Both the position numbers and the translations under genes were made by a program. Positions 36,533 through 53,096 of a DNA stretch of 64,000 bases are shown piece by piece. The DNA is from Naegleria gruberi (Eukaryota), in NCBI GenBank assembly GCA_000004985.1, contig GG738849.1; one strand, given 5' to 3'. Within the stretch, counting starts at the first letter, position 1; every line of letters begins with the position of its first letter. The notes beneath the pieces were generated by a model that was given only the letters and a program-made list of their open reading frames with translations, was not told where the DNA came from and did no database searches.

Positions 36533-38383
36533 ATGCAAAGAATCACAGAAAGAACTAACTTTATCACCCGAGACATTGATGTAGTCGGAGATGTTGATGG
36601 TATGGTTCGTTTACTCCGAACAAGTGATGCACAAATGTTTTGTGGATATGAAGATTTTCCATCATGTTTTGATGAGGATTGTTTGGGTGCTTTGGAAAAA
36701 ATTTCCCTCCGAATGAAACTCTGTATGCAAGATAGATTAAATGGAGTGAGAGGAAGTGTTGTTATGAGTGGTTGTGGAACAAGTGGTAGAATTGCCTATT
36801 TTTGTTCAAAGAATTATAATTATTGTTTTAGAAAAGTATTTTCTGATAGGATTGATAATGATGAATGCTTTCAATTTATTATTGCTGGTGGAGTGAATGC
36901 TCTTGTTTCACCACAGGAAGCTGCTGAGGATAAACCAGATATTGGAGCAAGAGATTTGGTAAATGTCATTTCGAATACTAAAACTGAGAGAGGATTATTT
37001 ATTGGTATTACTTGTGGATTTTCTGCTGGTTATGTAGCTGGTCAAGTGATGCAATTGAGTGAGGATAAGAGTCTTGGTTTTGATTCTGTTTTATTTGGGT
37101 TTAATCCAAAGGAGTTGGCTAGGGATAGTCCAATTGAAGGATGGAGGGATGGAAATATTTCTTTCAAGGACGTAATTGAAAATGTGGAAAAGAACCAATC
37201 GAGAGAGGATGAATTTTTCTTTTTGAATCCAATTGTTGGACCAGAATCTATCACGGGTTCTACAAGAATGAAGGGTGGAAGTGCAACCAAATTTCTGCTT
37301 GATGTTGCCTTCTCTTCAGCCATTATGAGTATTCTGGATGAAAAGAAGAAGATTAGAGACAATATCATTCAAGTACTCTCTGGTTTTGAGCATACTGTGA
37401 GAAGTACATATGATTTTTCTAGTAATACCTTTTCAACAAATAGTCTCAAATCCATTACTCCAACCATTGAAATGGCAGCAAATAGTTTAAAGAATGGTAA
37501 CCTAGATGAAAGAAACGAGGATCAAATGGGCCATATTTATTACATTGGTGCTGAAAATGCTGGAATTTTGGGATTTATTGATTCTTCAGAGTGTGTACCA
37601 ACTTATGGTGCTCATCCTAATGATGTTAGAGGATTTATCAAAAAGGGATGGAACGATGTCTTTACCCATCACAATCAAGATATCAATAGTGATTTTGAAC
37701 AAAAGGGATCAAGTTTTGGCATTTCCTATGATTTCTTCAAACAAAATATTTTACATACAGTCAATTCTAGGGATTCGGTCTTCTTTTTGGCAATTGAACA
37801 ATGTATAGATGAAGAAACTCTTGCTGACATGAAGGAAATCCTAAATACGGTCAAGGAAAGAGGGGCCTCTGTCTGCTGGATTCTTGTAACCACAAAAGGT
37901 AATAATTCATTGTACCAGACCGTATCTGAATTGGGATCCCCAATATTGCACCATGCGCTTGACTCGCTTGGTCCAGTACCTTTCTTATATGGTTATGCAG
38001 AGCTTAGTATGAAACTTTTTTTGAATGCCATTACAACTGGTGCTCACGTATTGAAGGGTATGACATTTGGAAATAGAATGATCAATCTCAAAGTTAGTAA
38101 TAACAAACTATTTTATAGGGCTATTAATATTGTCAGTTCGATAATGAATGTAACTGAAGAGCTTGCAGAGAAATGTGTATTGAGAGCCATCTACAATGAT
38201 TCAACTCCAGAAAGTAACCTCGTCTCACTTCACATTAGTCATGCTATCAAGATGAATAAGGTAGTTCCTGTTGCCCTCTTGCTTGCTTCTTCAGGTGGTA
38301 CCTTGACTGTGGAACAAGCTAGAGAAATGTTAGCCAAAGACCCGGTGGTTAGGCAAGTAATTCTAAAGGAAAAGAAGAATTAA
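36533..38383 (+). CDS. Glucokinase regulatory protein (GCKR) homolog; double SIS-domain, MurQ-related protein.
   Basis: 'VVMSGCGTSGRIAYF', 'FNPKELARDSPIEGW', 'LNPIVGPESITGSTRMKGGSATKFLLD', 'GAHPNDVRGF' and 'TTGAHVLKGMTFGNRMINLKVSNNKLFYRAI' match human GCKR ('LSGGGTSGRMAFL', 'FNPVSMARNDPIEDW', 'LNPAIGPEGLSGSSRMKGGSATKILLE', 'GADFRDVRGF', 'STGAHVLLGKI...LRISNSKLFWRAL'). The length (616 aa) is the same as GCKR. Confidence 0.8.
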   Translation: MQRITERTNFITRDIDVVGDVDGMVRLLRTSDAQMFCGYEDFPSCFDEDCLGALEKISLRMKLCMQDRLNGVRGSVVMSGCGTSGRIAYFCSKNYNYCFRKVFSDRIDNDECFQFIIAGGVNALVSPQEAAEDKPDIGARDLVNVISNTKTERGLFIGITCGFSAGYVAGQVMQLSEDKSLGFDSVLFGFNPKELARDSPIEGWRDGNISFKDVIENVEKNQSREDEFFFLNPIVGPESITGSTRMKGGSATKFLLDVAFSSAIMSILDEKKKIRDNIIQVLSGFEHTVRSTYDFSSNTFSTNSLKSITPTIEMAANSLKNGNLDERNEDQMGHIYYIGAENAGILGFIDSSECVPTYGAHPNDVRGFIKKGWNDVFTHHNQDINSDFEQKGSSFGISYDFFKQNILHTVNSRDSVFFLAIEQCIDEETLADMKEILNTVKERGASVCWILVTTKGNNSLYQTVSELGSPILHHALDSLGPVPFLYGYAELSMKLFLNAITTGAHVLKGMTFGNRMINLKVSNNKLFYRAINIVSSIMNVTEELAEKCVLRAIYNDSTPESNLVSLHISHAIKMNKVVPVALLLASSGGTLTVEQAREMLAKDPVVRQVILKEKKN

Positions 38384-42377: not shown

Positions 42378-44877
42378 CTACAAGTAATATTGTTTCTTGT
42401 TGAGATTTTTGTGAGGACTTTTAGAAATGTTCGATTGACCATGTAAAAATGCTACCTTGTGAGCTAATATACAAGGTACAGGAACACTCGAAATTCCCAA
42501 ACGATTATAATACAAGTGACACAATTGGTACGATATATTCTGATAGAATACCTTATTAAATCCACTCCCATTTTCCAAAACCTTATACCTTGTTGGAGTT
42601 GCTGTTCCCTGAAACGAATCAACATGATGAGATTGAAGAAAGAATGACATTTCGTTTGGATCTGATGTCAGAATATCACCATCTAGAACTGTTCCTGGTT
42701 TCAAATTACCAAAATTGTTTCCATTTAGCCCAGCATATATTCTATTATTGATTCGTTTAAGTACAAGAATGAAATTGAGTGGAATAGAGTTGTATTCTTT
42801 GCAAACTTGTTGGATGGCTAATATCTCCTGATTGTAAATGTGATCTTCTTGCCCTGAACCTACACCATCTCTATAGAAAATAATATGTGTTGGAGAAGTT
42901 TTGTTCTCATTCATGAAATTCTCAATTGCATTCCTCATTAGATTTTTGATATTTTCAACCAACTCAACTCCTGGCTTCTGGACTTGGATTTGAGAATAGT
43001 ATGCGCATACCTTTGAATCGTAGGATGATACGAAACCAACGAGAGAGGATTTACTTCGATGGTAAACTTCACCTGAATGATTAACATCCATTCCGACAAT
43101 CATGGTATGTGGTTTCATTGGAATTGATGTCATCCAAGGAATTCCTCCAAGTTTAGCATTCATTTCAATTGTGATATTCTTCAAAATAGATGATTTTTTT
43201 TCAGAGATAGCAATGTTCCTCTCAGTAATGCATTGGCTAGGAATTCCCATATCTACAATGGTTTTTTCTTTCAAGGTATGGTATTCGGTACTTGTTTTGT
43301 TTTTAGTTATCATGAGAATGAATGAGATTGGGTAAGAATTTCTAATAGTATCAGTGAGATCTTTTTTTGAAACATGAGGAACATATTGTTGAAAGACATA
43401 GTTCATATTGGATGTTTCTAAATTCATTTGAGAACAAAACTGTTGCAACTTGTTGCAAAAGTCAACCAAATCTTTTGATTTTGTACCTTGATGAAGAACC
43501 AATACGCGTTCAAGAGATTTGCATTCGAACATGTTACTATTATTTTCAATTTTGAACATTCCTCTTTCTTTTTCAATTTTAACTTTTCCTCCAATTTTAA
43601 TGGAACAATCTTCAAGTGATTCCGTTTGCACTTGAATCATTTTTGGGACAATAGATATACCCTACTTATCCAGCTCTAATTTGAACTCTGAATGTTCCAA
43701 ACATTCGCGTTGATTGTTTAAAGTTTCTCTAATTCTGTCATTTGGTGGTTTTTTAGTGACAGAGGCAATTTTCTGCATTGTGGTAAAATTACTTCTCATA
43801 TCCTGACTTATTCCTGTCAATAGACACAACGAAGGAATATAGTATTCAACCTTTCCATTCCTCTTGTTAATATGTTTAAGTAAGGGTTGTTTCAAATCAA
43901 CGTCTTCACCATATTGTGTATTGTAATATTCTGCGAATGTAATTTCCTTTCCTTGAAAATTGAATGTTGACACAGGACTCATATCAAATTCAACACTTTC
44001 AATATAAATAGTTTTCTTTCTGTAAGTCAAGTAAACAATAGAATTTCCAAATTCTCTCTTGATTTTCGTTTGGGCAGAACGTTCTCCAAACTGTTCAATA
44101 ATCTTTTTCATTTGGCTTAAAACAGTATCTGTTCTCATAGTTTTATAAATTGGCTCAACTAGGAGAGCAAGGCCTTTAGAGGTGGTACAGGTTGAGCTTA
44201 GAGTTCCTCCCAATATTTGAAGCCCACAATCATGAATAGTTGTTTTGGTCTCTTCATTGTAAAAGTTTCTTCCAATTCTTGTTAGATTCAACTTGGCTTG
44301 AGCGTTCTTAAGGACAGAGTTGACGAATTGTACAAAGTCCTTTCCAGAATTTGAAACAGTAATGGTTGTTGCCAGCGTGATTGAAACAGTGTACACAATA
44401 TTTCCAATAGAACACGTCTTTTCTAAGTGTTTCTTTTGAGGTGGAAGAATTGAGTTGAGAGAGTATAAAATTGACCCACTCTGTAAGAAGTCAATTAGAA
44501 AGTCACTTAAAGCCTGCTTTACAATCCTATTAGCAAGGTATTTGTTTTCAATTTGCGGACTAATGTTAACATGGTACTGATAAATTGAAGTGTGCTTTCA
44601 ATTCAATTGGGAACATGTTGATTACATCCTTTCCCTTTCCCAAATTAAAATAATCAACAACTGGAATTTGGGACAAGGGTTGGCTAGGTGAATTTGAGGA
44701 GAATTGATTTGTTTTCTTATGATGTTGGTTGTGTGGCTTCTTGTCAGAGTTATAGGCTTTGTACTTGGTTCCTTGTGATAACATTTTTTCTTGTTGTGTT
44801 TTCTTCCATTTTGCAATTCCCAACCCAAAAATAACAATGTTGGGAAGTCTGGAAGATATGTTGAGTTGGGAAAGCAA
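42378..44877 (-). CDS. Piwi-like Argonaute protein (PAZ plus PIWI domains). The PAZ-containing exon (43665..~44571) and the PIWI-containing ORF (42378..43640) are in the same frame, separated by one in-frame TAG (43662..43664) plus 21 nt. An upstream exon lies at about 44621..44877 with an intron at about 44572..44620.
   Basis: PAZ-like 'FNFQGKEITFAEYYNTQYGEDVDLKQPLLKHINKRNGKVEYYIPSLCLLTG'. PIWI motifs 'IIFYRDGVGSGQ', 'GTATPTRYKVL', 'LCHLYYNRLGISSVPVPCILAHKVAFL'. 'MIVGMDVNH' is the first catalytic Asp. Frame arithmetic: (44396-42378+1) is divisible by 3. The GTAATC...TTTATCAG intron joins 'NLGKGKD|YHVNISPQ'. Confidence 0.7.
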
Positions 44878-44922: not shown

Positions 44923-46756
44923 TTATTTGAAAACTTGTGATATCACACCAAGTCCCTTTGTTGTTCCTTCACGGAAGATTAATCGTTCACCAACTCTGAG
45001 ATATTCAGGTCTGAACAGGAATCTAAATTTGACTTTAGCCTTTTCACCTGTTCTTAGAGATTCATTATCGTTAATCTTTACAAGTTTAGCAGATTGTCTA
45101 ATACAATTACAATGTATAACTGGTTGATAATTTTCCTTAATAGTGGTACTATGATACAATACGAGAATATCAGCTTCAAATTCCCAAACAGCTTTTGGTT
45201 CTTCTTCGTCTACAATAACCATTCCCTTTCTAATTCCGGAACGTCTTTCTTTTTTCAATGCAAAACTTGCTTGTTGACCAGCATGAACTCTTTTCACGTT
45301 GACTCTCTTACAATGAATACTCTTAATTACGACACTTCTGAAATGTCCGTTGCTATCTGGTCCTAGCATTAGTTTGTCATTTACAGAAATACTTCCACTT
45401 TGTACAATACCAGAAACAACTGTACCAACACCACTGACAAAGAAGGTTTGATCAATGACATATTGTGCTGGTTTGTCAATTAATGATTCCCAATCTTTTC
45501 TAATTGGTAACAGATTGAGGAACTTATGCAAGAGTTGCAGATTTTCACCAGTTACTGAACTCATCAAGAACATTGGACAAATTCTGTCACTTGCTAAATT
45601 TTTGGCACAAGTCAGAACATCGTCATCATTCTTGACATGATATGGTAACTTTCTAACTCCAGGAAGTTTAAGAATTTTGTGAATGGTTTCAATAGTTTGT
45701 TTGAGAATATTTTCTGGACAAATGTCAACCTTAGTAATGCAGAAAAACATTGGAATCTTGAGAGCCAGACACAATCCGATATGTTCCTTGGTCATCTATA
45801 GTCATTGTTAGCATTCAAAAATAATTTTAAAAACTTACCTTTGTGACACCCATGTTACTACCAACACATAGGAGAGCATAATCTGGTCCTGTTGTCATAC
45901 CAAAAACGGTTGTTTTCAAGTACTTTTCGTGTCCAGCAAGGTCAATAAATGTACAAACTTTTGATGACTTATCAATAATATCTTTCCATGAAGGAGACTG
46001 TAAGTTTGAGTAATTTACAGTGTCACCTTTAGAATCAAATCCCATAATTTGATGACTGATACTAGAAGTTCTTCCTGTTGTCAATTCGTGCTTGTGGACA
46101 AAAACATTAGAACGAGCTAATCCTCTACCATTGTCAAGTTGTCCATGTGTCAGCACACCAATAAGTGTTGATTTTCCAGAGTCAACATTACCACAAACTG
46201 CAATATTTACATTCAAATATTCTTCTTCTCCGAATCTTCTTACAAGCACTTCAGCAACCCATCTCTTTTCTTCTGGATTGGTTATAGTAGCAGCTTGCTT
46301 CTTATTCTTTTTACCTTCGGAGGATACTTGCTTTTCACAAATAACTGAAACAGTGGCTTGTAACTCGATGGCCATCTTTTCAATATTTCCTAGTGTTTCT
46401 CTGTATTCTTCCTCAACTAATCCCAATGGATAGCCATCATCGTTGATTCCTATTTCATAGATGGCTTCACCTTGTCCTTCAGATAAACGATAGGACATTT
46501 GGGTAACAAGATGTTTAAATCTATCTTCTGACAATCCTACTAACTTCCATTTGTATTCTACATTTCCATCATCACTTTCCTTGGATAATATTTCATTAGA
46601 TGCCAAAAGTGATTTTTCTTCAATTAATTCCTTATCTTGCTCTAAATTGATAACTTGTTTATGTTCTGTACCAGAAGAAGAAGAAGCTTTTGTAGTAGTA
46701 GTGGCACCATTAACACTCTCTGTTGTTGATGGTATGGGATCTTTAGTCTCTGACAT
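44923..46756 (-). CDS. GTP-binding protein 1 (GTPBP1/AGP-1 family translational GTPase). Two exons with a 43-nt intron (45796..45838).
   Basis: 'EGQGEAIYEIGINDDGYPLGL', G1 'AVCGNVDSGKSTLIGVL', G3 'IDLAGHEKY', 'SNMGVTK|MTKEHIGLCLALKIPMFFCITKVDICP' across a GTAAGT...CTATAG intron, and a beta-barrel domain 2 'VSGVGTVVSGIVQSG'. Confidence 0.8.
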
Positions 46757-47209: not shown

Positions 47210-50200
47210 TTATTGTAATAGATTTTGTTGACTGCTACCACTTTGGAGGGAAATATCAGATTCTGAACGACCAACTAGTCTACTAAAGGTTCTTGGATCG
47301 ACTGCTCTGGTTGGTAGTGATTGACTTGATGAAGAGACATCAGATTCCAATTTAATTTCATTTTCATCGACGAAAACTACTGCCTTATCACTCTTCTGCT
47401 TGGAGCTTGAAGAATTGGAGTCTTCTTCCTTCTTACTGAGATTTCCATTTGAATCAACAAAGGTTGGCTCGACTGGAATTGGTAAACCACGATCCATTAA
47501 TTCCACATCCCATAATCTATTATCATCATATTCGTCCAAGTCAACATCCAAAGATTCTCCTTCAATCTTCTTCAAATATTTAACGAAACGTTCCCATAAT
47601 TTAACCATTCCTTTCTTGAGTCTGATTTTGAGTGGAGCTTTTGTGGTTGTTTGTGGAACTGGTGTTTCAGATGGAATGTCAACTATAGTTGTGGCCGACT
47701 TTTCGGTGAGCTCTACTTGAGTAGTTTGAGATTTGGAGTTTTCTTCTTTGAGTTCAATATCATTGGAGGAGAGGAATGAATTATTGACACCAGCAGACAA
47801 TATGGCCTTTTGATTCTTTTGCTTTTCAGCGAGTTGCTTCTTGATTCTTCTATCTGCCAAATATTGAGATAAAAAGTCGAGAGCAATAAGTAAAATAATA
47901 GCTGCAGAACTGATTATAACAGATATAATACACAAATAACCAAGTGCTGAGCCTGTTGCTTCGTCTGGGAACTCATTGACATAGAAGAGCAATCCAGAGA
48001 AGAGTAAAAACTCAGTTGACAAGAGGACAATATACTCCATAACATTGTGGAATACTCTTCTGTATGGAACGTGATGGGTTTGCAAAATGAATGAAATGAA
48101 AATCACAAACATGGTGAAGAGAATGACAATAATTGGCCATGTGGAGAAGAAGATGATGGCTGCAGAGATGGCTAACTTTCTCAAAATTACAATAATTTCC
48201 CAGAACAATCTTCCATTTCTGAAACGAACGAACAAGAAACGGAATCTTGCATAAAATTTGTAACTCTTGGTAGCATCGTTCTTCTTCCAAATAATGTAAG
48301 CAAATAGGGCAATAGTTCCCAATCCAAAGAAGATGAATGTCAATAAGGCAAATGAAAAGTAGACCCACCAAGTATTCTCAAAACAATAAAGAGTGGTGTC
48401 AGCACTCACATAAAATCTCTTGACACCCTGATCCAAAACCTCTCTACAATCAAATATTTCAGCTGCCTTTGTAATAACAAAGACATAACTAAAACTAATC
48501 ACCACAATGAAAGTGTGAATAAATTTGTCACCATAGGCAATAATTTCTCTCTTGGATCTTGGAGTAAGGAAGTATCTCAAAATGTCTCTTCTAATTCCCT
48601 TCATAATTTTAATGAAAATATTCTTATGTTCAATGTTGAACCATTCGACAACCTTTGGATGTTTTCTTATGGCAGCTATGAACGGCAATTTGGAAAGAGT
48701 AACAGTTCTTAAGCATTCCAAACCAAATACAATAATCAGTAACACTGAGATGAATACAGGCATGGCAATGGTAAGACCCCACTTGAGTCCATATGTAATA
48801 ATCTCAATACATTCTGGAACGACTGATATTATTCAATTGAATTATTTTCTTAGGTTAAACAATTAAGATAATGATACTTACAAATATCAAGATTAAGATT
48901 GAAAAATTTCAAAGTGTCAAATGCCTGTTGTAAACTGTCAGGCCATTCAAAATTATACACTGTAAAAACGGCAATAATTTGGAAATAGCTGATAGCAATA
49001 CTAGCACTAGACAAGTGAGAAACCTTCAATTGAGCAAACTTGAACAAAACCAAAGCAATAATAATTACAACTGCAACAACAATCAAGAAACGCAATTGAA
49101 CATCAGTATTACACTCCTTACAAATGTCACCACTCTTAAAATACAATCCAGTAACACATGAAACGCATTTGATACCAGAATAACCTGTAGCACATCTACC
49201 TGCCAAAGTTAAATTACCAGGACATCTCAATTCTGCATTTGGTTCATCACATTTTACAATGACAATTTTTCCATTCTGAATTTTGGTTGTCTCTGCATCC
49301 CACCAATAGCCAGGTAATGGTTTTGGAAGAGAGGAGCCACCTTCACATGTTGCTCCAGTTGGGCATGGCCAACATTCAGCAGTTAGAATATCACTATCAT
49401 TTCTTCTGTAATAGCCCTTTTCACAGTCACAATTGAATTGAGAGCTTGATCCTGCAGAGAGGGTGGTTTTGAAAGCACCACATGAAACACATTTGGATTG
49501 AGCTGTCAAATTGTTATAACTTCCAACTTCACAAGGAATACAACTAAAGAAACCTTCTAATGGTTTATATTGGCCAATTGGACATTCAGTGCACGATTTT
49601 TCATAATCCTCAGCAGTGAAACCAACTGGACAAGCTTTAATAAAGATTGGATCTTTAGCATAGGCATATTGATAATTATTGCTATATTTTTGTACGAAAT
49701 TCAATGTGTGTGAATAATTTGAAAAAAACAACCTCTACTTACTATGACACTGAAACCTTGGCATATCCATCAGGATGTGAAGGACTTGTGCAATTAATTG
49801 CATAATCTTCCAAAAATAAACATTCCTCAGAGGATGTAAAATCTCCCAATTTGAAATAAATCTTTTCACTTGAACTGAACTTGGCTCCGGTTGACTTTGC
49901 TCTTACAGTTACCATATCACCACCTTTGGCTTCAATTTCTAATGGACTGACAGAATCAACAATTGGATTTTCAAATAATTCAAATAAAAATCCATCACTT
50001 CTCAAATTAGTTGTTGTTTCCAAGTAGATTTTGAAATTGGTCTTGTCTGGGAATGAGATTCTGGAATTGAATGGTCTAACATTGTAACTATCAATAAGTG
50101 ATTTTAAATCAGCTGCATTACATATACATCTGAATTCTGTACTAGATAGTCCAGAAGTAGCAGTATAATTTACACGAATGTTGGTATCAATTGAATACTC

Positions 50201-53096
50201 AAGCACACATCTCACAACATCAGTGGTAATACCTTTGAGAGTAACAGTGAAATATCCAACACCTTTAGAATCATCTGTTGGATTAATTGGTGCTCTACTT
50301 GGAATGGCTTGAACAATAACAGGTACTTCAGATTCTCTGACTGTAATCAAATAATCATTACCATCTTTCTTTGGATTATAAACACCAAATCCAAATGAAC
50401 CATCAAATGAAATACTGACATTGAATTTGAGTGGTAACAAGATACCAGAAGTGAAAACATTTGGAGAGGTACATCTGATTTCTGTTGAACTAAATCCAGA
50501 ACAATCAGAAAGGAATGAAATGGAACCAGTACTTTCTTGAAGAGCCAATTGTTCTTGAATTGATCTCTTTTGAATTTTAGTAGAGGCACTTCTGATATGT
50601 TGTCTATAGTTCTTTCTTGACATTTTGGCTAAAATTGATCTGGTATTAATTGAGTTTTGTTGATCTACTACAGTAAATTTGATCTTGATAGTTTCTGACA
50701 TTGGGAAGTTTGTACCAATAATTCTGAATTTGGATTCAACAGGTGAGATTGTATCATCTGAATATCCTGCTGGAATTGCTGTATTATTGACACCTAGATT
50801 GTACTGTTCAAACTTTGTTAATGAAATTTCACTTGGAATAATAACATTCAATCTTCTCACTCCATGATCTGTACTAAATGTTCCCAATTTACCATCAAAT
50901 GACAATTTCAAAATATATGTACCAGAAGCTGAAATGGTATTAGCAGAAACAGTTGAGAGAGCTAATTGTTTTGCATTGACATAGGTGGCTGTTCCCTCAT
51001 ATTGATCAATTAATTCTTGTCCAGTAGCAGGATCAATTTCTATCCATTTGTAATAAATTGTATTGCCTGGAGTTGGTTTTCCAAAACTATTGGAAGAGGT
51101 AAATATGGAAATTGCCACTTGATTCATACTATCCAAAAGAATAGTATCTGGATAAATTGTCTTGACAACTAGTGGTGGCATGAGTGAGAAACTATTACTA
51201 GTCCAATAAGCAATTGGCTGAGAAGTCTCATCTTTGGTAATTGCAATACCTACACGAATGTCACAATTAGCTAAGCAATCAAGAGGTGCAATTGTATCAG
51301 CTTGAGCCAAAGTACATGCACACAAAACATTCATTTTAGGCACCTGGTAAAAACTTTGCATATCACAAGAAATTCCATTCTTTCCAGCTTGAGAAATGTA
51401 TGAATAGGAACAAGAGATGATAAAAGCATTATTCAATATATTTGAGGTCGACAAGTAGAAGGTATAATTGAAGAGGGAAGGTACATAAATTTCCTCAATA
51501 TCTACAACATTGATTTTCAGATTGGAATAGACAGGACCATCTTTAAACTTGAAGGAGTACATGGCAGTAGGTGAATTAATTTGTGCTGTCAAGTACTGCC
51601 CATAGAGAATCTTTGGATTACCAACAATGGAGCCTGAACCAAGTGATTTCTGCTCTTGAAGACTTGCTGCCATAGTTGGAGTTCTCAAATAAAAATTTAA
51701 TTCCTGAGGAGGTGTAAACAAGTACTCAAAAGTTGAAGGACAAGGACATGATAATATTCTAGCATCACTTGCCAACCAATTACATGCCAATGAGTAGGGA
51801 GAATTTTTAACCTCCAACTCGAATAAACTCAATCTAACACTATTATTAGTGACCTCTCTGTAGAAATTGGTTTCTTGTGGAATGGTGAGTGTGAAATTAT
51901 TGAGTCCAAAAATTGAGCAGAAACTAGTACCATCATAATTAATAGTTGGTGGTACATTGAAATCATAAATATTCAGGTCCATATTGACAAATTGTGAATC
52001 AGCTCCTCCTTGTGAATATCCAACACTGGTTTTTCCATTCTTATAGGCACTATCTGAGCATGTAATTGTTGCCTTAACCAAAGTTTCAGAAACAATTGTA
52101 ACTTGAGAGCTAGAACTGTCTTTAAATAATTCAGAACTTTGGAAAATTGTTCCACAAATTTTCACAGTCAATGAATTGGTAGGAGAGAATAAGTAGCCAG
52201 ATGATGTAGAGTCTATTGAAAAGGTCAGTGTTGTAACTTCATTAAAACGGATTAGTGTTGGTGAAACCTTAATATTGGCACCTGAAATTGAATTGTAAAA
52301 TAAAATACCATCAGTTACAGGAACTGTAGTTGGACTTGCAGAGTTTGAATCCAAAACAACTTCAAAATCAATTTTTTTGTATCTATTTAAAGAATCATAA
52401 GAAGTCAATTGAAGCATACTTTGTGTATCTGAAGCAGGAATTGTAAAGTGATAAGAATTTGCACTTTTTGTTATGGAAAATGAATAAATTGGTGCAATTG
52501 AAGATCTGATACTATTTGACATTTTGTCAAAAAACATTGAAAATGTTGAAAATGAAATACTTGATGGATAATATTTCAATTCAAATTGTTGAGCAATATC
52601 TGTTCTGAGTTCTCTTCCATTAGGTGAAATGTACAAGTCAGAAATTACAACAAATGAATCAATTTCACTCGAAATTGTTTCACTCCCATTAACAATTGTT
52701 AAATTACAAAAACCAGTACCTCCAATCACAACAGTTAAAGAATTTTCACTATCAAAAACACAACCCGAAACATCCAATCTATCCGAAGTGCCTGTAACAG
52801 TGCTACAACCACACTTACTACCAATCGGATAGGTATTTTTCAAGTTGATGAAACGAGTAGTTGATGAATCGGATGATGGATAGTACAGAAATATTCTATT
52901 ATTTTCATCAAAGTCTGTTGTTAATATAGTTATATTCGAAATATAATGTTAATCCGATGACATGATTAGAACAAATTATTGATGAGATCCATTGATATGA
53001 TTAGACAACTTACTATAGGTTTCTTGTTGGTGTGTAAAGGAGAGTAAAATAAAAAGCAAAACTGAAAATAACAGTGTCAGTTTCAGACGTGTCATG
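47210..53096 (-). CDS. Large multi-pass membrane protein of about 1900 aa. It has a signal peptide, a roughly 1000-aa beta-rich ectodomain (IPT/TIG-like repeats), a Cys-rich GCC2/GCC3- or EGF-like module, about 8-9 TM helices and an acidic/Ser-rich cytoplasmic tail. Four exons: 53014..53096, 49743..52914, 48882..49681 and 47210..48823.
   Basis: Exon 1 'MTRLKLTLLFSVLLFILLSFTHQQETY' (cleavable signal). Introns are GTAAGT...AACAACAG (52915..53013), GTAAGT...AAATATAG (49682..49742) and GTAAGT...AATATCAG (48824..48881), all frame-consistent with ORFs 49742..52843, 48850..49731 and 47210..48763. The Cys module is 'CTECPIGQYKPLEGFFSCIPCEVGSYNNLTAQSKCVSCGAF...CWPCPTGATCEGG'. There are multiple hydrophobic helices after 'FLIVVAVVIIIALVLF'. 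Confidence 0.65.

What the first reader, a model, noticed from the sequence alone, without database searches (positions are those of the whole stretch)
47210..53096. Roughly 1900-aa protein combining a secreted beta-rich ectodomain, GCC2/GCC3-like Cys module and an 8-9-helix membrane domain
Four exons with canonical short introns assemble into one product. It has a signal peptide, an ectodomain of about 1050 aa (repetitive beta-strand-rich, Ig/IPT-like by composition), a 'CxxCPxGxY...CxxC' furin/GCC2-GCC3-type module, then 8-9 hydrophobic helices and a long acidic/Ser-rich tail. The layout is reminiscent of adhesion-GPCR or polycystin-type receptors rather than single-pass adhesion proteins. 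There is no GPS/GAIN motif that I can recognise by eye.
Basis: partly seen in the sequence, partly recalled or inferred. Interest (0 to 1): 0.5.

Follow-up and report, generated by a model that had tools for sequence, protein, structure and literature searches.

The report
Naegleria CRMP-type nine-helix surface receptor
This is a real, already annotated (and misnamed) gene of the amoeba Naegleria gruberi; its large sticky-looking outer part sits on the same cysteine-rich stalk and nine-helix membrane core as the CRMP proteins that malaria-type parasites and ciliates use to trigger secretion on contact, so it is an ordinary member of a known but poorly understood family.

Summary
A four-exon minus-strand gene (CDS 53095..47210, GT..AG introns of 99, 61 and 59 nt) encodes an 1888-aa protein identical to N. 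gruberi XP_002681832.1 / UniProt D2V2M9, which is named "probable extracellular nuclease" without any nuclease domain.

The layout is:
- signal peptide;
- about 985 aa of unassigned ectodomain;
- one TIG domain;
- Ephrin_rec_like (formerly GCC2_GCC3) repeats;
- a 10-Cys juxtamembrane module;
- nine TM helices, N-terminus out and C-terminus in;
- a 224-aa acidic/Ser-rich tail with motifs conserved among the Naegleria-type sequences compared.

It is neither a 7TM adhesion GPCR nor a 6/11-TM polycystin. No 7tm, GAIN/GPS, PKD or ion-channel family matches, and a confident model (pLDDT 87) has no solved fold relative.

The Cys module plus 9-TM core is homologous to the core of Toxoplasma CRMPA (hhalign E 1.4e-21) and CRMPB (E 5.9e-13). 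At least 2107 protein clusters share it, among them Naegleria, Acrasis and Anaeramoeba proteins.

The last four helices also show repeated, mostly sub-threshold matches to the fungal "TRP-like" Flc/Pkd2 family (PF06011).

Verdict: a new member of a known kind. Its function is inferred only: contact or ligand sensing coupled to signalling or Ca2+ entry.

The parts
53014..53095 (-). Exon 1 (ATG at 53095). It encodes the signal peptide, aa 1-24 (53024..53095), and the first ectodomain residues.
   Evidence: Splice assembly and translation. Hydropathy peak at aa 4-22. The product is identical to XP_002681832.1.
52915..53013 (-). Intron 1, 99 nt, GTAAGT...AG
   Evidence: Sequence read. The frame is restored only by this splice.
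49743..52914 (-). Exon 2. It encodes the bulk of the ectodomain. Residues 25-1010 (49967..53023, including intron 1) are Ser/Thr-rich, with 23 Cys in aa 28-1090, and have no assigned family. Most of the TIG domain follows.
   Evidence: ORF 49742..52843. Composition. No Pfam family except sub-threshold pAdhesive_15. No PDB sequence match. The N-terminal 430 aa resemble the N-termini of relatives P0013 and P0017 at 21-23% identity.
49669..49966 (-). IPT/TIG domain, aa 1011-1089 (spans intron 2, 49682..49742)
   Evidence: Pfam PF01833, E 4.6e-7 in the whole protein and 2.1e-9 in a fragment. TIG lies directly upstream of Ephrin_rec_like in relatives P0014, P0015, P0031, P0034 and P0023, P0166.
49411..49638 (-). 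Ephrin_rec_like (formerly GCC2_GCC3) Cys-rich repeats, about aa 1100-1175. The best Pfam stretch is 1128-1169; the outer limits are approximate.
   Evidence: Pfam PF07699, E 4.9e-8, two stretches. 31 of 40 family members carry it. The closest solved relatives of the Cys-rich part (this feature and/or the juxtamembrane module) are Chlamydomonas Mst1, thyroglobulin and Eph receptors.
49117..49389 (-). Juxtamembrane Cys module, about aa 1183-1273 (CPxGxxC ... PGYW ... C ... CPG ... C..GY.G..C..C..G.Y ... C..C). Ten Cys are invariant across the family.
   Evidence: Alignment A2. It aligns to the DUF7630-type module of TgCRMPA in hhalign. DUF7630 scores 64.6 bits on TgCRMPA and passes threshold on relatives P0090, P0100 and P0153 and P0002. 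This protein itself gives only a weak DUF7631 hit at 1186-1200.
48823..48881 (-). Intron 3, 59 nt, GTAAGT...AG, inside the TM2-TM3 extracellular loop
47885..49101 (-). Nine-helix membrane domain, aa 1279-1664 (includes intron 3). TM1 1279-1302, TM2 1306-1326, TM3 1362-1396, TM4 1442-1475, TM5 1501-1532, TM6 1559-1576, TM7 1581-1602, TM8 1608-1633, TM9 1639-1664. The TM4-5 loop holds a beta-hairpin with two conserved Cys. The cytosolic TM5-6 segment carries the motif RFxFL..R..FWE....RK. PY....HN.LE lies at TM7-8.
   Evidence: AlphaFold2 model mb5b2e25d39ea, pLDDT 87.3. Loop charges and Cys fit an N-out, C-in topology. Conserved columns. 2107 representative relatives. Homology to TgCRMPA and TgCRMPB.
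47210..47884 (-). Cytoplasmic tail, aa 1665-1888, plus the stop codon. It is acidic and Ser-rich. Conserved motifs are YLKKIEGExLDxDLxEYDxxRLWDVELxDRGLP, NEIKL and VDPxTxSRL..RSxSDxS.
   Evidence: Composition. Alignment with N. lovaniensis P0011 and the close ENA relative P0012.

Best explanation
The gene encodes a member of the CRMP (cysteine repeat modular protein) family in the heterolobosean amoeba Naegleria gruberi.

Shown here:
- A signal peptide is followed by a roughly 1250-aa extracellular part: an unassigned Ser/Thr-rich region, one TIG domain, Ephrin_rec_like repeats and a 10-Cys juxtamembrane module.
- Then comes a nine-helix membrane domain with the N-terminus outside and the C-terminus inside.
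- Last is a 224-aa acidic cytosolic tail with motifs conserved among the three Naegleria-type sequences compared.
- The Cys module plus nine-helix core is a conserved cassette. In other protists it carries quite different ectodomains: beta-helix/PMP repeats, cadherin-like, filamin and many Ephrin_rec_like repeats. One relative has a cytosolic SH3 domain.

Inferred mechanism:
- The variable ectodomain binds a surface or ligand, such as prey bacteria, substratum or other cells.
- The rigid Cys-rich stalk passes that event to the nine-helix core.
- The core signals to the cytoplasm, either through its conserved cytosolic TM5-6 segment and tail, or by itself conducting Ca2+.
- The result would be a local response such as regulated exocytosis, adhesion or phagocytic uptake.

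This rests on two analogies. Toxoplasma and Tetrahymena CRMPs are needed for contact- or stimulus-triggered exocytosis. The faintly related fungal Flc/Pkd2 proteins are implicated in calcium influx and homeostasis, and fission-yeast Pkd2 is reported to be activated by membrane tension.
For: Gene model and identity:
- Exact match to XP_002681832.1.
- Domains found by Pfam: TIG and Ephrin_rec_like.

Nine helices and topology:
- Hydropathy gives nine peaks.
- The AlphaFold2 model has pLDDT 87.3 and pTM 0.74.
- Lys+Arg counts are 1, 10, 7 and 2 in the predicted cytosolic loops against 1, 3, 0 and 0 in the outer loops. Conserved Cys occur only in the outer loops.

Conserved cassette:
- phmmer of aa 1175-1700 aligns from about the CPxG motif to TM9 in more than 100 proteins.
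- Invariant residues are listed in alignment A2.

CRMP homology:
- hhalign of A2 against the TgCRMPA core sequence (from S2 Table of PMC9815656) gives 99.4% probability, E 1.4e-21, over 383 columns from the Cys module to TM8.
- Against TgCRMPB it gives 97.9% probability and E 5.9e-13.
- Direct BLASTP is collinear over 380 columns at 19% identity, E 0.002.
- Pfam DUF7630 hits the TgCRMPA module at 64.6 bits, and family members P0090, P0100 and P0153 above threshold.

Published CRMP features that match:
- A conserved core of two EGF-like domains plus nine TM domains, and Dictyostelium homologues with different ectodomains (PMC9815656).
- N-terminus outside, C-terminus cytosolic, and a role in rhoptry and mucocyst exocytosis (PMC9670195).

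Link to the fungal family:
- PF06011 matches 15 of 40 family members at E <= 1e-3. In the eleven checked individually the match covers profile positions about 270-400, the TM6-9 region, and in four of them it starts further upstream.
- P0100 scores 32.3 bits, above the 28.5-bit cut-off.
- The close Naegleria relatives score E 1.5e-4 and 2.7e-4.
- This protein scores E 0.91 in the same register.
- Fission-yeast Pkd2 is predicted to have an Ig-like outer domain, nine TM helices and a disordered tail.
Against: - No functional data exist for this protein or for any relative outside the alveolates. The role is inferred by analogy across very distant eukaryotes.
- Identity to TgCRMPA is only 16-19%.
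- This protein does not itself reach the Pfam threshold for DUF7630 or PF06011.
- No rhoptry- or mucocyst-type secretory organelle, and none of the alveolate partner proteins, was looked for or found here. The specific exocytosis role may therefore not transfer.
- Most of the ectodomain has no recognised fold, so 'adhesive' is a guess from composition and one TIG domain.
- Localisation at the plasma membrane is assumed.
- Channel activity of the nine-helix fold was not tested here and no solved structure of the fold was found.
Confidence: 0.8

Rival explanations
1. It is an adhesion-GPCR-like receptor. A large adhesive ectodomain would be coupled to a serpentine domain that activates heterotrimeric G proteins.
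For: - The overall look fits: a big modular ectodomain on a multi-pass domain.
- One relative carries the database name 'G protein-coupled receptor-related'.
- PANTHER files TgCRMPa and PfCRMP1 as GPCR-like, according to PMC9670195.
- NCD3G, a family-C GPCR Cys domain, gives weak hits in relatives.
Against: - There are nine helices, not seven.
- No 7tm family and no GPS/GAIN hit appears even at E <= 1.
- Only 190 aa of Cys repeats lie between the TIG domain and TM1, which leaves little room for a GAIN domain of about 320 aa (size from my own knowledge).
- Foldseek gives no significant membrane-domain hit.
- The CRMP authors themselves say CRMPs are not bona fide GPCRs.
Confidence: 0.04
2. It is a polycystin/TRP-type channel or a PKD1-like receptor: a 6-TM pore-loop channel, or an 11-TM receptor with REJ, GPS and PLAT domains.
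For: - The TM6-9 region gives weak hits to the Pfam family named 'TRP' (PF06011), whose fission-yeast member is called Pkd2.
- The best solved relative of the Cys module is Chlamydomonas Mst1. According to PMC10846610, PKD2 is attached to mastigonemes, the extracellular polymers of MST1.
Against: - No PKD_channel, Ion_trans, REJ, PLAT or GPS hit appears.
- A two-pore channel hit in the PDB profile search is insignificant (E 0.04).
[quoted passage not shown] The name does not imply the polycystin fold.
- This protein scores 8.7 bits against a cut-off of 28.5.
Confidence: 0.05
3. It is a secreted or surface nuclease, as the database name 'probable extracellular nuclease' says.
For: Only the name given in NCBI and UniProt.
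Against: - No nuclease family appears in Pfam at E <= 1, either in the whole protein or in overlapping ectodomain fragments.
- The ectodomain has no PDB sequence relative.
- The protein is an integral nine-helix membrane protein.
- The name probably spread from bacterial Ig-repeat proteins; that is my inference.
Confidence: 0.01
4. The nine-helix core is a transporter or membrane-homeostasis factor rather than a signal transducer, and the ectodomain serves only for anchoring or sorting. The yeast Flc proteins, annotated as flavin carriers, would be the model.
For: - There is a distant PF06011 link.
- Flc1 is described as regulating calcium homeostasis and flavin transport (abstract of PMC9600462).
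- Polar residues are conserved within or at the ends of helices: Q in TM2, E and R/K in TM6, H/N/E at TM8.
Against: - The cassette is always joined to large, highly variable, adhesion-type ectodomains, and in one case to a cytosolic SH3 domain. That fits receptors better than housekeeping transporters.
- The experimentally studied CRMPs act in triggered exocytosis.
- No known transporter fold matches.
Confidence: 0.1

Closest known systems
Apicomplexan and ciliate CRMPs (Toxoplasma CRMPA/CRMPB, Plasmodium CRMP1-4, Tetrahymena CRMP1/2)
   Same: - The core cassette is the same: Cys-rich Ephrin_rec_like/EGF-like modules, a juxtamembrane DUF7630-type Cys module and nine TM helices, with N-terminus out and C-terminus in.
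- Shared motifs include F.C...G...L...C in the TM4-5 loop, (R/K)(F/Y)GFL...(F/Y)......WE....RK after TM5, and P(F/Y)....(H/.)..(L/M)E after TM7.
- Profile homology is E 1.4e-21 to TgCRMPA and 5.9e-13 to TgCRMPB.
- The ectodomain is large and variable.
   Different: - The ectodomain has a TIG domain and an unassigned Ser/Thr-rich region. It lacks the Kringle, MAR, C-lectin or thrombospondin-associated parts described for apicomplexan CRMPs.
- Identity is only 16-19%.
- The organism is a free-living discoban amoeba. No alveolate-type rhoptries or mucocysts and no CRMP partner proteins were identified here.
- Heterodimer formation and any role in exocytosis are untested.
Fungal 'TRP-like' Flc/Pkd2 family (Pfam PF06011; S. 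pombe Pkd2, Trp663, Trp1322; S. cerevisiae Flc1-3)
   Same: - The predicted plan is the same: signal peptide, extracellular beta-sandwich domain, nine TM helices and a disordered cytosolic tail.
- The last four or five helices give collinear Pfam matches in 15 of 40 relatives, one of them above threshold.
   Different: - This protein scores only 8.7 bits.
- It has no ML-like/TRP_N outer domain.
- The fungal proteins lack the Cys-rich stalk and the huge ectodomain.
- Homology over TM1-4 is not shown.
Chlamydomonas mastigoneme protein Mst1 (PDB 8tx1, 8wa2)
   Same: It is the best solved relative of the Cys-rich Ephrin_rec_like stalk (profile E 1.8e-41; Foldseek top hit).
   Different: The match covers only the Cys-rich part of the query profile. 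No membrane-domain relative was found in the PDB.
Adhesion GPCRs
   Same: The concept is the same: a modular adhesive ectodomain on a multi-pass membrane domain with a cytosolic tail.
   Different: This protein has nine helices rather than seven, no GAIN/GPS, no family-B 7tm signature and no specific fold match.

Membership tests
CRMP (cysteine repeat modular protein) family | Extracellular Cys-rich modules of the Ephrin_rec_like/GCC2_GCC3 or EGF-like type | tested here: met
   PF07699 at aa 1128-1169, E 4.9e-8, two stretches; E 5.3e-10 in the 600-aa fragment.
CRMP (cysteine repeat modular protein) family | Juxtamembrane Cys module of the DUF7630 type immediately before TM1 | tested here: met
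   DUF7630 scores 64.6 bits on TgCRMPA. This protein's module (aa about 1228-1275) aligns to it within the hhalign match, and all ten Cys are invariant in A2. Caveat: the Pfam model itself does not report this protein at E <= 1. Relatives P0090, P0100, P0153 and P0002 pass threshold.
CRMP (cysteine repeat modular protein) family | Nine C-terminal TM helices, ectodomain outside, tail cytosolic | tested here: met
   Nine helices in the pLDDT-87 model. Positive-inside rule and Cys distribution. The published CRMP description is nine TM domains.
CRMP (cysteine repeat modular protein) family | Sequence homology of the conserved core to bona fide CRMPs | tested here: met
   hhalign of A2 against TgCRMPA gives 99.4% probability and E 1.4e-21; against TgCRMPB 97.9% and E 5.9e-13. 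Pairwise BLASTP gives E 0.002, collinear over 380 columns.
CRMP (cysteine repeat modular protein) family | Heterodimer with a second CRMP paralogue; required for stimulus-triggered exocytosis | not testable with these tools
   N. gruberi has at least one paralogue with the same core (D2VTD0, 5338 aa). Complex prediction and experiments were not possible.
Adhesion GPCR | Seven-helix family-B (secretin/adhesion) membrane domain | tested here: not met
Adhesion GPCR | GAIN domain with a GPS cleavage motif next to TM1 | tested here: not met
   No GPS/GAIN hit. The modelled 190 aa before TM1 are Cys-repeat hairpins only.
Polycystin / TRP channels (PKD2-type, PKD1-type) | Six-helix pore-loop channel domain (PKD_channel/Ion_trans), or 11 helices with REJ, GPS and PLAT | tested here: not met
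Fungal TRP-like Flc/Pkd2 family (PF06011) | PF06011 score at or above the gathering cut-off (28.5 bits) | tested here: not met
   This protein scores 8.7 bits, E 0.91, aa 1540-1680 against profile positions 274-414. As a superfamily link it stays open: 15 of 40 relatives match at E <= 1e-3. Eleven were checked individually and all cover profile positions about 270-400; P0100 scores 32.3 bits.
Fungal TRP-like Flc/Pkd2 family (PF06011) | N-terminal ML-like (TRP_N) lipid-binding domain | tested here: not met
   There is no such Pfam hit in the whole protein or in ectodomain fragments.
Extracellular nuclease (database name) | A nuclease catalytic domain | tested here: not met
   No nuclease family is found. 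The ectodomain has no PDB sequence relative.

The most novel reading that the evidence does not exclude
The CRMP core may be an ancient, pan-eukaryotic nine-helix module rather than an alveolate invention. Here it is seen in Discoba (Naegleria, Acrasis), Metamonada (Anaeramoeba) and Alveolata, and published work adds Amoebozoa. It may form one superfamily with the fungal Flc/Pkd2 'TRP-like' domain. On this reading the Naegleria protein would be a contact- or force-gated Ca2+-permeable receptor-channel that couples recognition of prey or substratum to local exocytosis or phagocytosis. That would give the enigmatic apicomplexan invasion trigger a free-living ancestor and a concrete biophysical mechanism.
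Probability: 0.25. Interest if true: 0.6.

Novelty: new member of a known kind. Interest (0 to 1): 0.3.

Why it matters
[quoted passage not shown] They matter in mosquito stages of Plasmodium, yet how their nine-helix core signals is unknown and no structure exists.

This work shows that a free-living amoeba carries clear relatives with the same core and other ectodomains, and that thousands of related clusters exist. That widens the comparative base for finding what the core does.

The repeated weak matches to the fungal Flc/Pkd2 family suggest a testable idea, Ca2+ entry gated by contact or tension. In practical terms, the public name 'probable extracellular nuclease' for D2V2M9 should be corrected.

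The gene itself is not surprising. It is already annotated, and homologues of CRMPs outside alveolates (Dictyostelium) have been mentioned in print.

Tried and rejected
- Word-index protein search with the full-length protein. It returned only two distant hits and missed even the protein's own cluster, probably swamped by low-complexity words. With core alignment A2 it returned 12 close hits and no named CRMP.
- Looking up the neighbouring gene in the contig index found nothing.
- Single-sequence AlphaFold2 gave a useless model, pLDDT 42. Only the alignment-based job was usable.
- The AlphaFold-database fold library was not available. No direct structural comparison with PfCRMP2, Dictyostelium Q86I19 or S. 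pombe Pkd2 was therefore possible.
- Sequence searches of the PDB found nothing for the core or the ectodomain. The A1 profile hit only Cys-rich proteins.
- An internal-repeat test of the ectodomain with a TIG sub-profile was weak, and fragment-wise Pfam was almost empty. The claim 'many Ig/TIG repeats' stays unproven.
- I could not obtain a fungal PF06011 sequence, so no profile-profile test of the Flc/Pkd2 link was run.
- Literature searches for CRMP together with Naegleria, or CRMP together with TRP, found no paper in the library held.
- Gene neighbourhood was checked and set aside as uninformative. The neighbours are unrelated housekeeping genes.
- A gene-fusion artefact was rejected. The same ectodomain-plus-core layout occurs in full-length relatives P0013 (1845 aa) and P0017 (1666 aa).

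Full report
**What is in the sequence**

The window is AT-rich (GC about 0.29-0.36). Around the finding it shows long minus-strand ORFs separated by short gaps.

Reading the minus strand, I spliced 53095..53014, 52914..49743, 49681..48882 and 48822..47210. The donors are GTAAGT, the acceptors AG, and the introns 99, 61 and 59 nt. This gives a single open frame of 1888 aa ending at a stop at 47210.

That exact sequence is in the public collection as Naegleria gruberi XP_002681832.1 / EFC49088.1 / UniProt D2V2M9, named 'probable extracellular nuclease'. Three neighbouring single-exon ORFs are also exact N. gruberi proteins on an 850,158-bp scaffold.

**Anatomy**

- Hydropathy gives an N-terminal signal-type segment and nine hydrophobic peaks between aa 1274 and 1675.
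- Pfam finds a TIG domain at 1011-1089 and Ephrin_rec_like (PF07699, formerly GCC2_GCC3) at 1128-1169. There are weak hits to DUF7631 (1186-1200) and to PF06011 'TRP' (1540-1680, E 0.91). It finds no 7tm, GPS/GAIN, PKD, REJ, PLAT, ion-channel or nuclease family.
- Residues 25-1010 stay unassigned. Overlapping 220-aa fragments give only a sub-threshold pAdhesive_15 hit. There is no PDB sequence relative. A TIG sub-profile finds only weak internal echoes.
- The tail (aa 1690-1888) is 21% Ser+Thr and 17% Asp+Glu. It carries motifs conserved with N. lovaniensis and a close metagenomic relative: YLKKIEGExLDxDLxEYDxxRLWDVELxDRGLP, NEIKL and VDPxTxSRL..RSxSDxS.

**Relatives**

An exhaustive HMMER search with the exon-4 part of the membrane domain found 2107 representative clusters at E <= 1e-3 and 202 at E <= 1e-10.

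Named examples come from two look-ups. One search gave:
- N. lovaniensis XP_044554623 (76% identity);
- a 5338-aa N. gruberi paralogue, D2VTD0;
- Anaeramoeba flamelloides proteins, variously named 'repeat outer membrane protein', 'G protein-coupled receptor-related' and 'Ephrin receptor-like domain-containing'.

One search gave an Acrasis kona '10 TM domain-containing' protein.

Local phmmer shows that the conserved unit starts at the CPxGxxC motif (about aa 1186) and runs to TM9 in more than 100 proteins.

Core alignment A2 has these conserved features:
- ten invariant Cys before TM1;
- an invariant Gln in TM2;
- a WP ... FNFNxD ... PEC outer loop;
- two invariant Cys in the TM4-5 loop;
- a cytosolic RFxFL..R..FWE....RK segment;
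- PY....HN.LE between TM7 and TM8.

The cassette is joined to very different ectodomains: Ephrin_rec_like arrays, TIG, Chlamydia-PMP/beta-helix repeats, cadherin-like and filamin. In one relative, P0100, it is joined to a cytosolic SH3 domain.

**Structure**

A single-sequence AlphaFold2 run failed, with pLDDT 42. With alignment A1 (40 sequences) the model of aa 1090-1689 reached mean pLDDT 87.3 and pTM 0.74.

The model shows Cys-repeat hairpins, then nine TM helices: 1279-1302, 1306-1326, 1362-1396, 1442-1475, 1501-1532, 1559-1576, 1581-1602, 1608-1633 and 1639-1664. There is a beta-hairpin in the TM4-5 loop.

Loop composition fits an N-out, C-in topology. Lys+Arg counts are 1, 10, 7 and 2 in the predicted inner loops against 1, 3, 0 and 0 in the outer ones. 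The conserved Cys lie only outside.

Foldseek against the PDB gave no hit at E <= 1e-3. Its best hits cover only the Cys module: Chlamydomonas mastigoneme Mst1, 4-1BB, thyroglobulin and Eph receptors. The sequence-profile search agrees, with Mst1 at 1.8e-41.

**What it is**

The layout suggested the CRMPs of Apicomplexa.

PMC9815656 describes CRMPs as having several Cys-rich domains and nine TM domains. It defines a 'conserved core' of two EGF-like domains plus the TM domains, notes Dictyostelium homologues with different ectodomains, and predicts a CRMPA/CRMPB heterodimer.

Its S2 Table gives the TgCRMPA and TgCRMPB core sequences, and I compared them with this family:
- Profile A2 aligns to TgCRMPA with 99.4% probability, E 1.4e-21, over 383 columns from the Cys module to TM8.
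- It aligns to TgCRMPB with 97.9% probability and E 5.9e-13.
- The single-sequence BLASTP alignment is collinear, with E 0.002.
- Pfam DUF7630 marks the TgCRMPA juxtamembrane module at 64.6 bits. It also passes threshold in several members of this family.

Every testable defining feature of CRMPs is met. I therefore file the protein as a CRMP-family member.

**Link to fungal 'TRP-like' proteins**

PF06011 (Flc1-3, S. pombe Pkd2, Aspergillus TrpR) matches 15 of 40 family members at E <= 1e-3. In the eleven checked individually the match covers profile positions about 270-400, that is TM6-9, and in four of them it starts further upstream.
- P0100 exceeds the gathering cut-off, with 32.3 bits against 28.5.
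- The close Naegleria relatives score E 1.5e-4 and 2.7e-4.
- This protein scores E 0.91 in the same register.

S. pombe Pkd2 is predicted to have an Ig-like outer domain, nine TM helices and a disordered tail. This points to a distant relationship of at least the C-terminal helices. I could not obtain fungal sequences for a profile-profile test, so I leave it as inconclusive. No paper in the held library mentions CRMPs together with TRP channels or with Naegleria.

**How it most likely works**

The architecture, topology and family membership are shown. The mechanism is inferred.

In Toxoplasma, CRMPs reach the surface with their N-termini outside. They gather transiently at the exocytic site and are required for rhoptry discharge, but not for assembly of the secretion apparatus. 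Tetrahymena CRMP knockouts fail to discharge mucocysts (PMC9670195).

[quoted passage not shown] Cryptococcus Flc1 controls calcium homeostasis (title of PMC9600462).

The most economical reading has three steps:
1. The variable ectodomain binds a surface or ligand.
2. The disulfide-rich stalk transmits this to the nine-helix core.
3. The core signals inward, through its conserved cytosolic TM5-6 segment and tail motifs or by admitting Ca2+.

For a bacterivorous amoeba, the likely outputs are adhesion, phagocytic uptake or local secretion.

Confidence that the protein is a CRMP-family nine-helix surface protein is about 0.8. Confidence in the specific signalling role is about 0.4.

**Rivals**

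- Adhesion GPCR and true polycystin memberships fail their defining tests.
- The database 'nuclease' name has no support.
- A transporter-like role, by analogy with Flc proteins, cannot be excluded.
- Gene fusion is unlikely, because full-length relatives share the layout.
- The neighbourhood is unrelated housekeeping: a GKRP-like SIS protein, coiled-coil, Piwi, GTPBP-like GTPase, PPR, FAM210 and cyclophilin genes.

**Verdict**

The gene is an already annotated but misnamed member of a known family, so it counts as a new member of a known kind. Interest is modest (0.3). The more interesting open point is the breadth of the CRMP core across eukaryotes and its possible kinship with the fungal Flc/Pkd2 family.

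Noticed in passing
window 47210-53095 (public record D2V2M9 / XP_002681832.1): The public name 'probable extracellular nuclease' has no support. No nuclease domain is present, and the protein is an integral nine-helix membrane protein of the CRMP family.
   Followed up: yes
protein P0100 (relative found; Pfam): One family member combines TIG (weak), Ephrin_rec_like, DUF7630, the nine-helix core (PF06011 at 32.3 bits, above threshold) and a C-terminal cytosolic SH3 domain. This hints that the tail of this family recruits cytoskeletal or signalling partners.
   Followed up: partly
model aa 1090-1278 = window about 49102-49669: The best solved relative of the Cys-rich stalk is Chlamydomonas mastigoneme protein Mst1 (8tx1/8wa2). 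According to PMC10846610, PKD2 is attached to mastigonemes in cilia. The match covers only the Cys-rich part, so it may be no more than a shared building block.
   Followed up: partly
window 42378-44396, minus strand: A Piwi-domain ORF (PF02171, E 1.9e-70) sits at 42378..43640, with a further ORF just upstream at 43662..44396. This is probably a multi-exon Argonaute/Piwi gene.
   Followed up: no
window 44923-46756, minus strand: Two adjacent ORFs (44923..45795 and 45827..46756) together carry an EF-Tu-type GTPase domain plus domains 2 and 3. They look like one GTPBP1/eEF1A-like gene split by a very short intron of about 31 nt.
   Followed up: no
window 36533-38383, plus strand: This ORF is a glucokinase-regulatory-protein-like protein with two SIS domains and a lid domain (D2V2M4, 'AM34').
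   Followed up: no
tool behaviour: The word-indexed protein search missed the query's own cluster and nearly all of the 2107 relatives that the exhaustive HMMER search found. For Ser/Thr/Asn-rich protist proteins its negative results should not be read as absence.
   Followed up: yes
N. lovaniensis relative P0011, core residues about 790-800 (coreset sequence): Its public model lacks the segment YWWDAETT...ELRCPG of the juxtamembrane module and starts at the equivalent of aa 426 of the N. gruberi protein. This is probably an incomplete gene model rather than a real difference.
   Followed up: no
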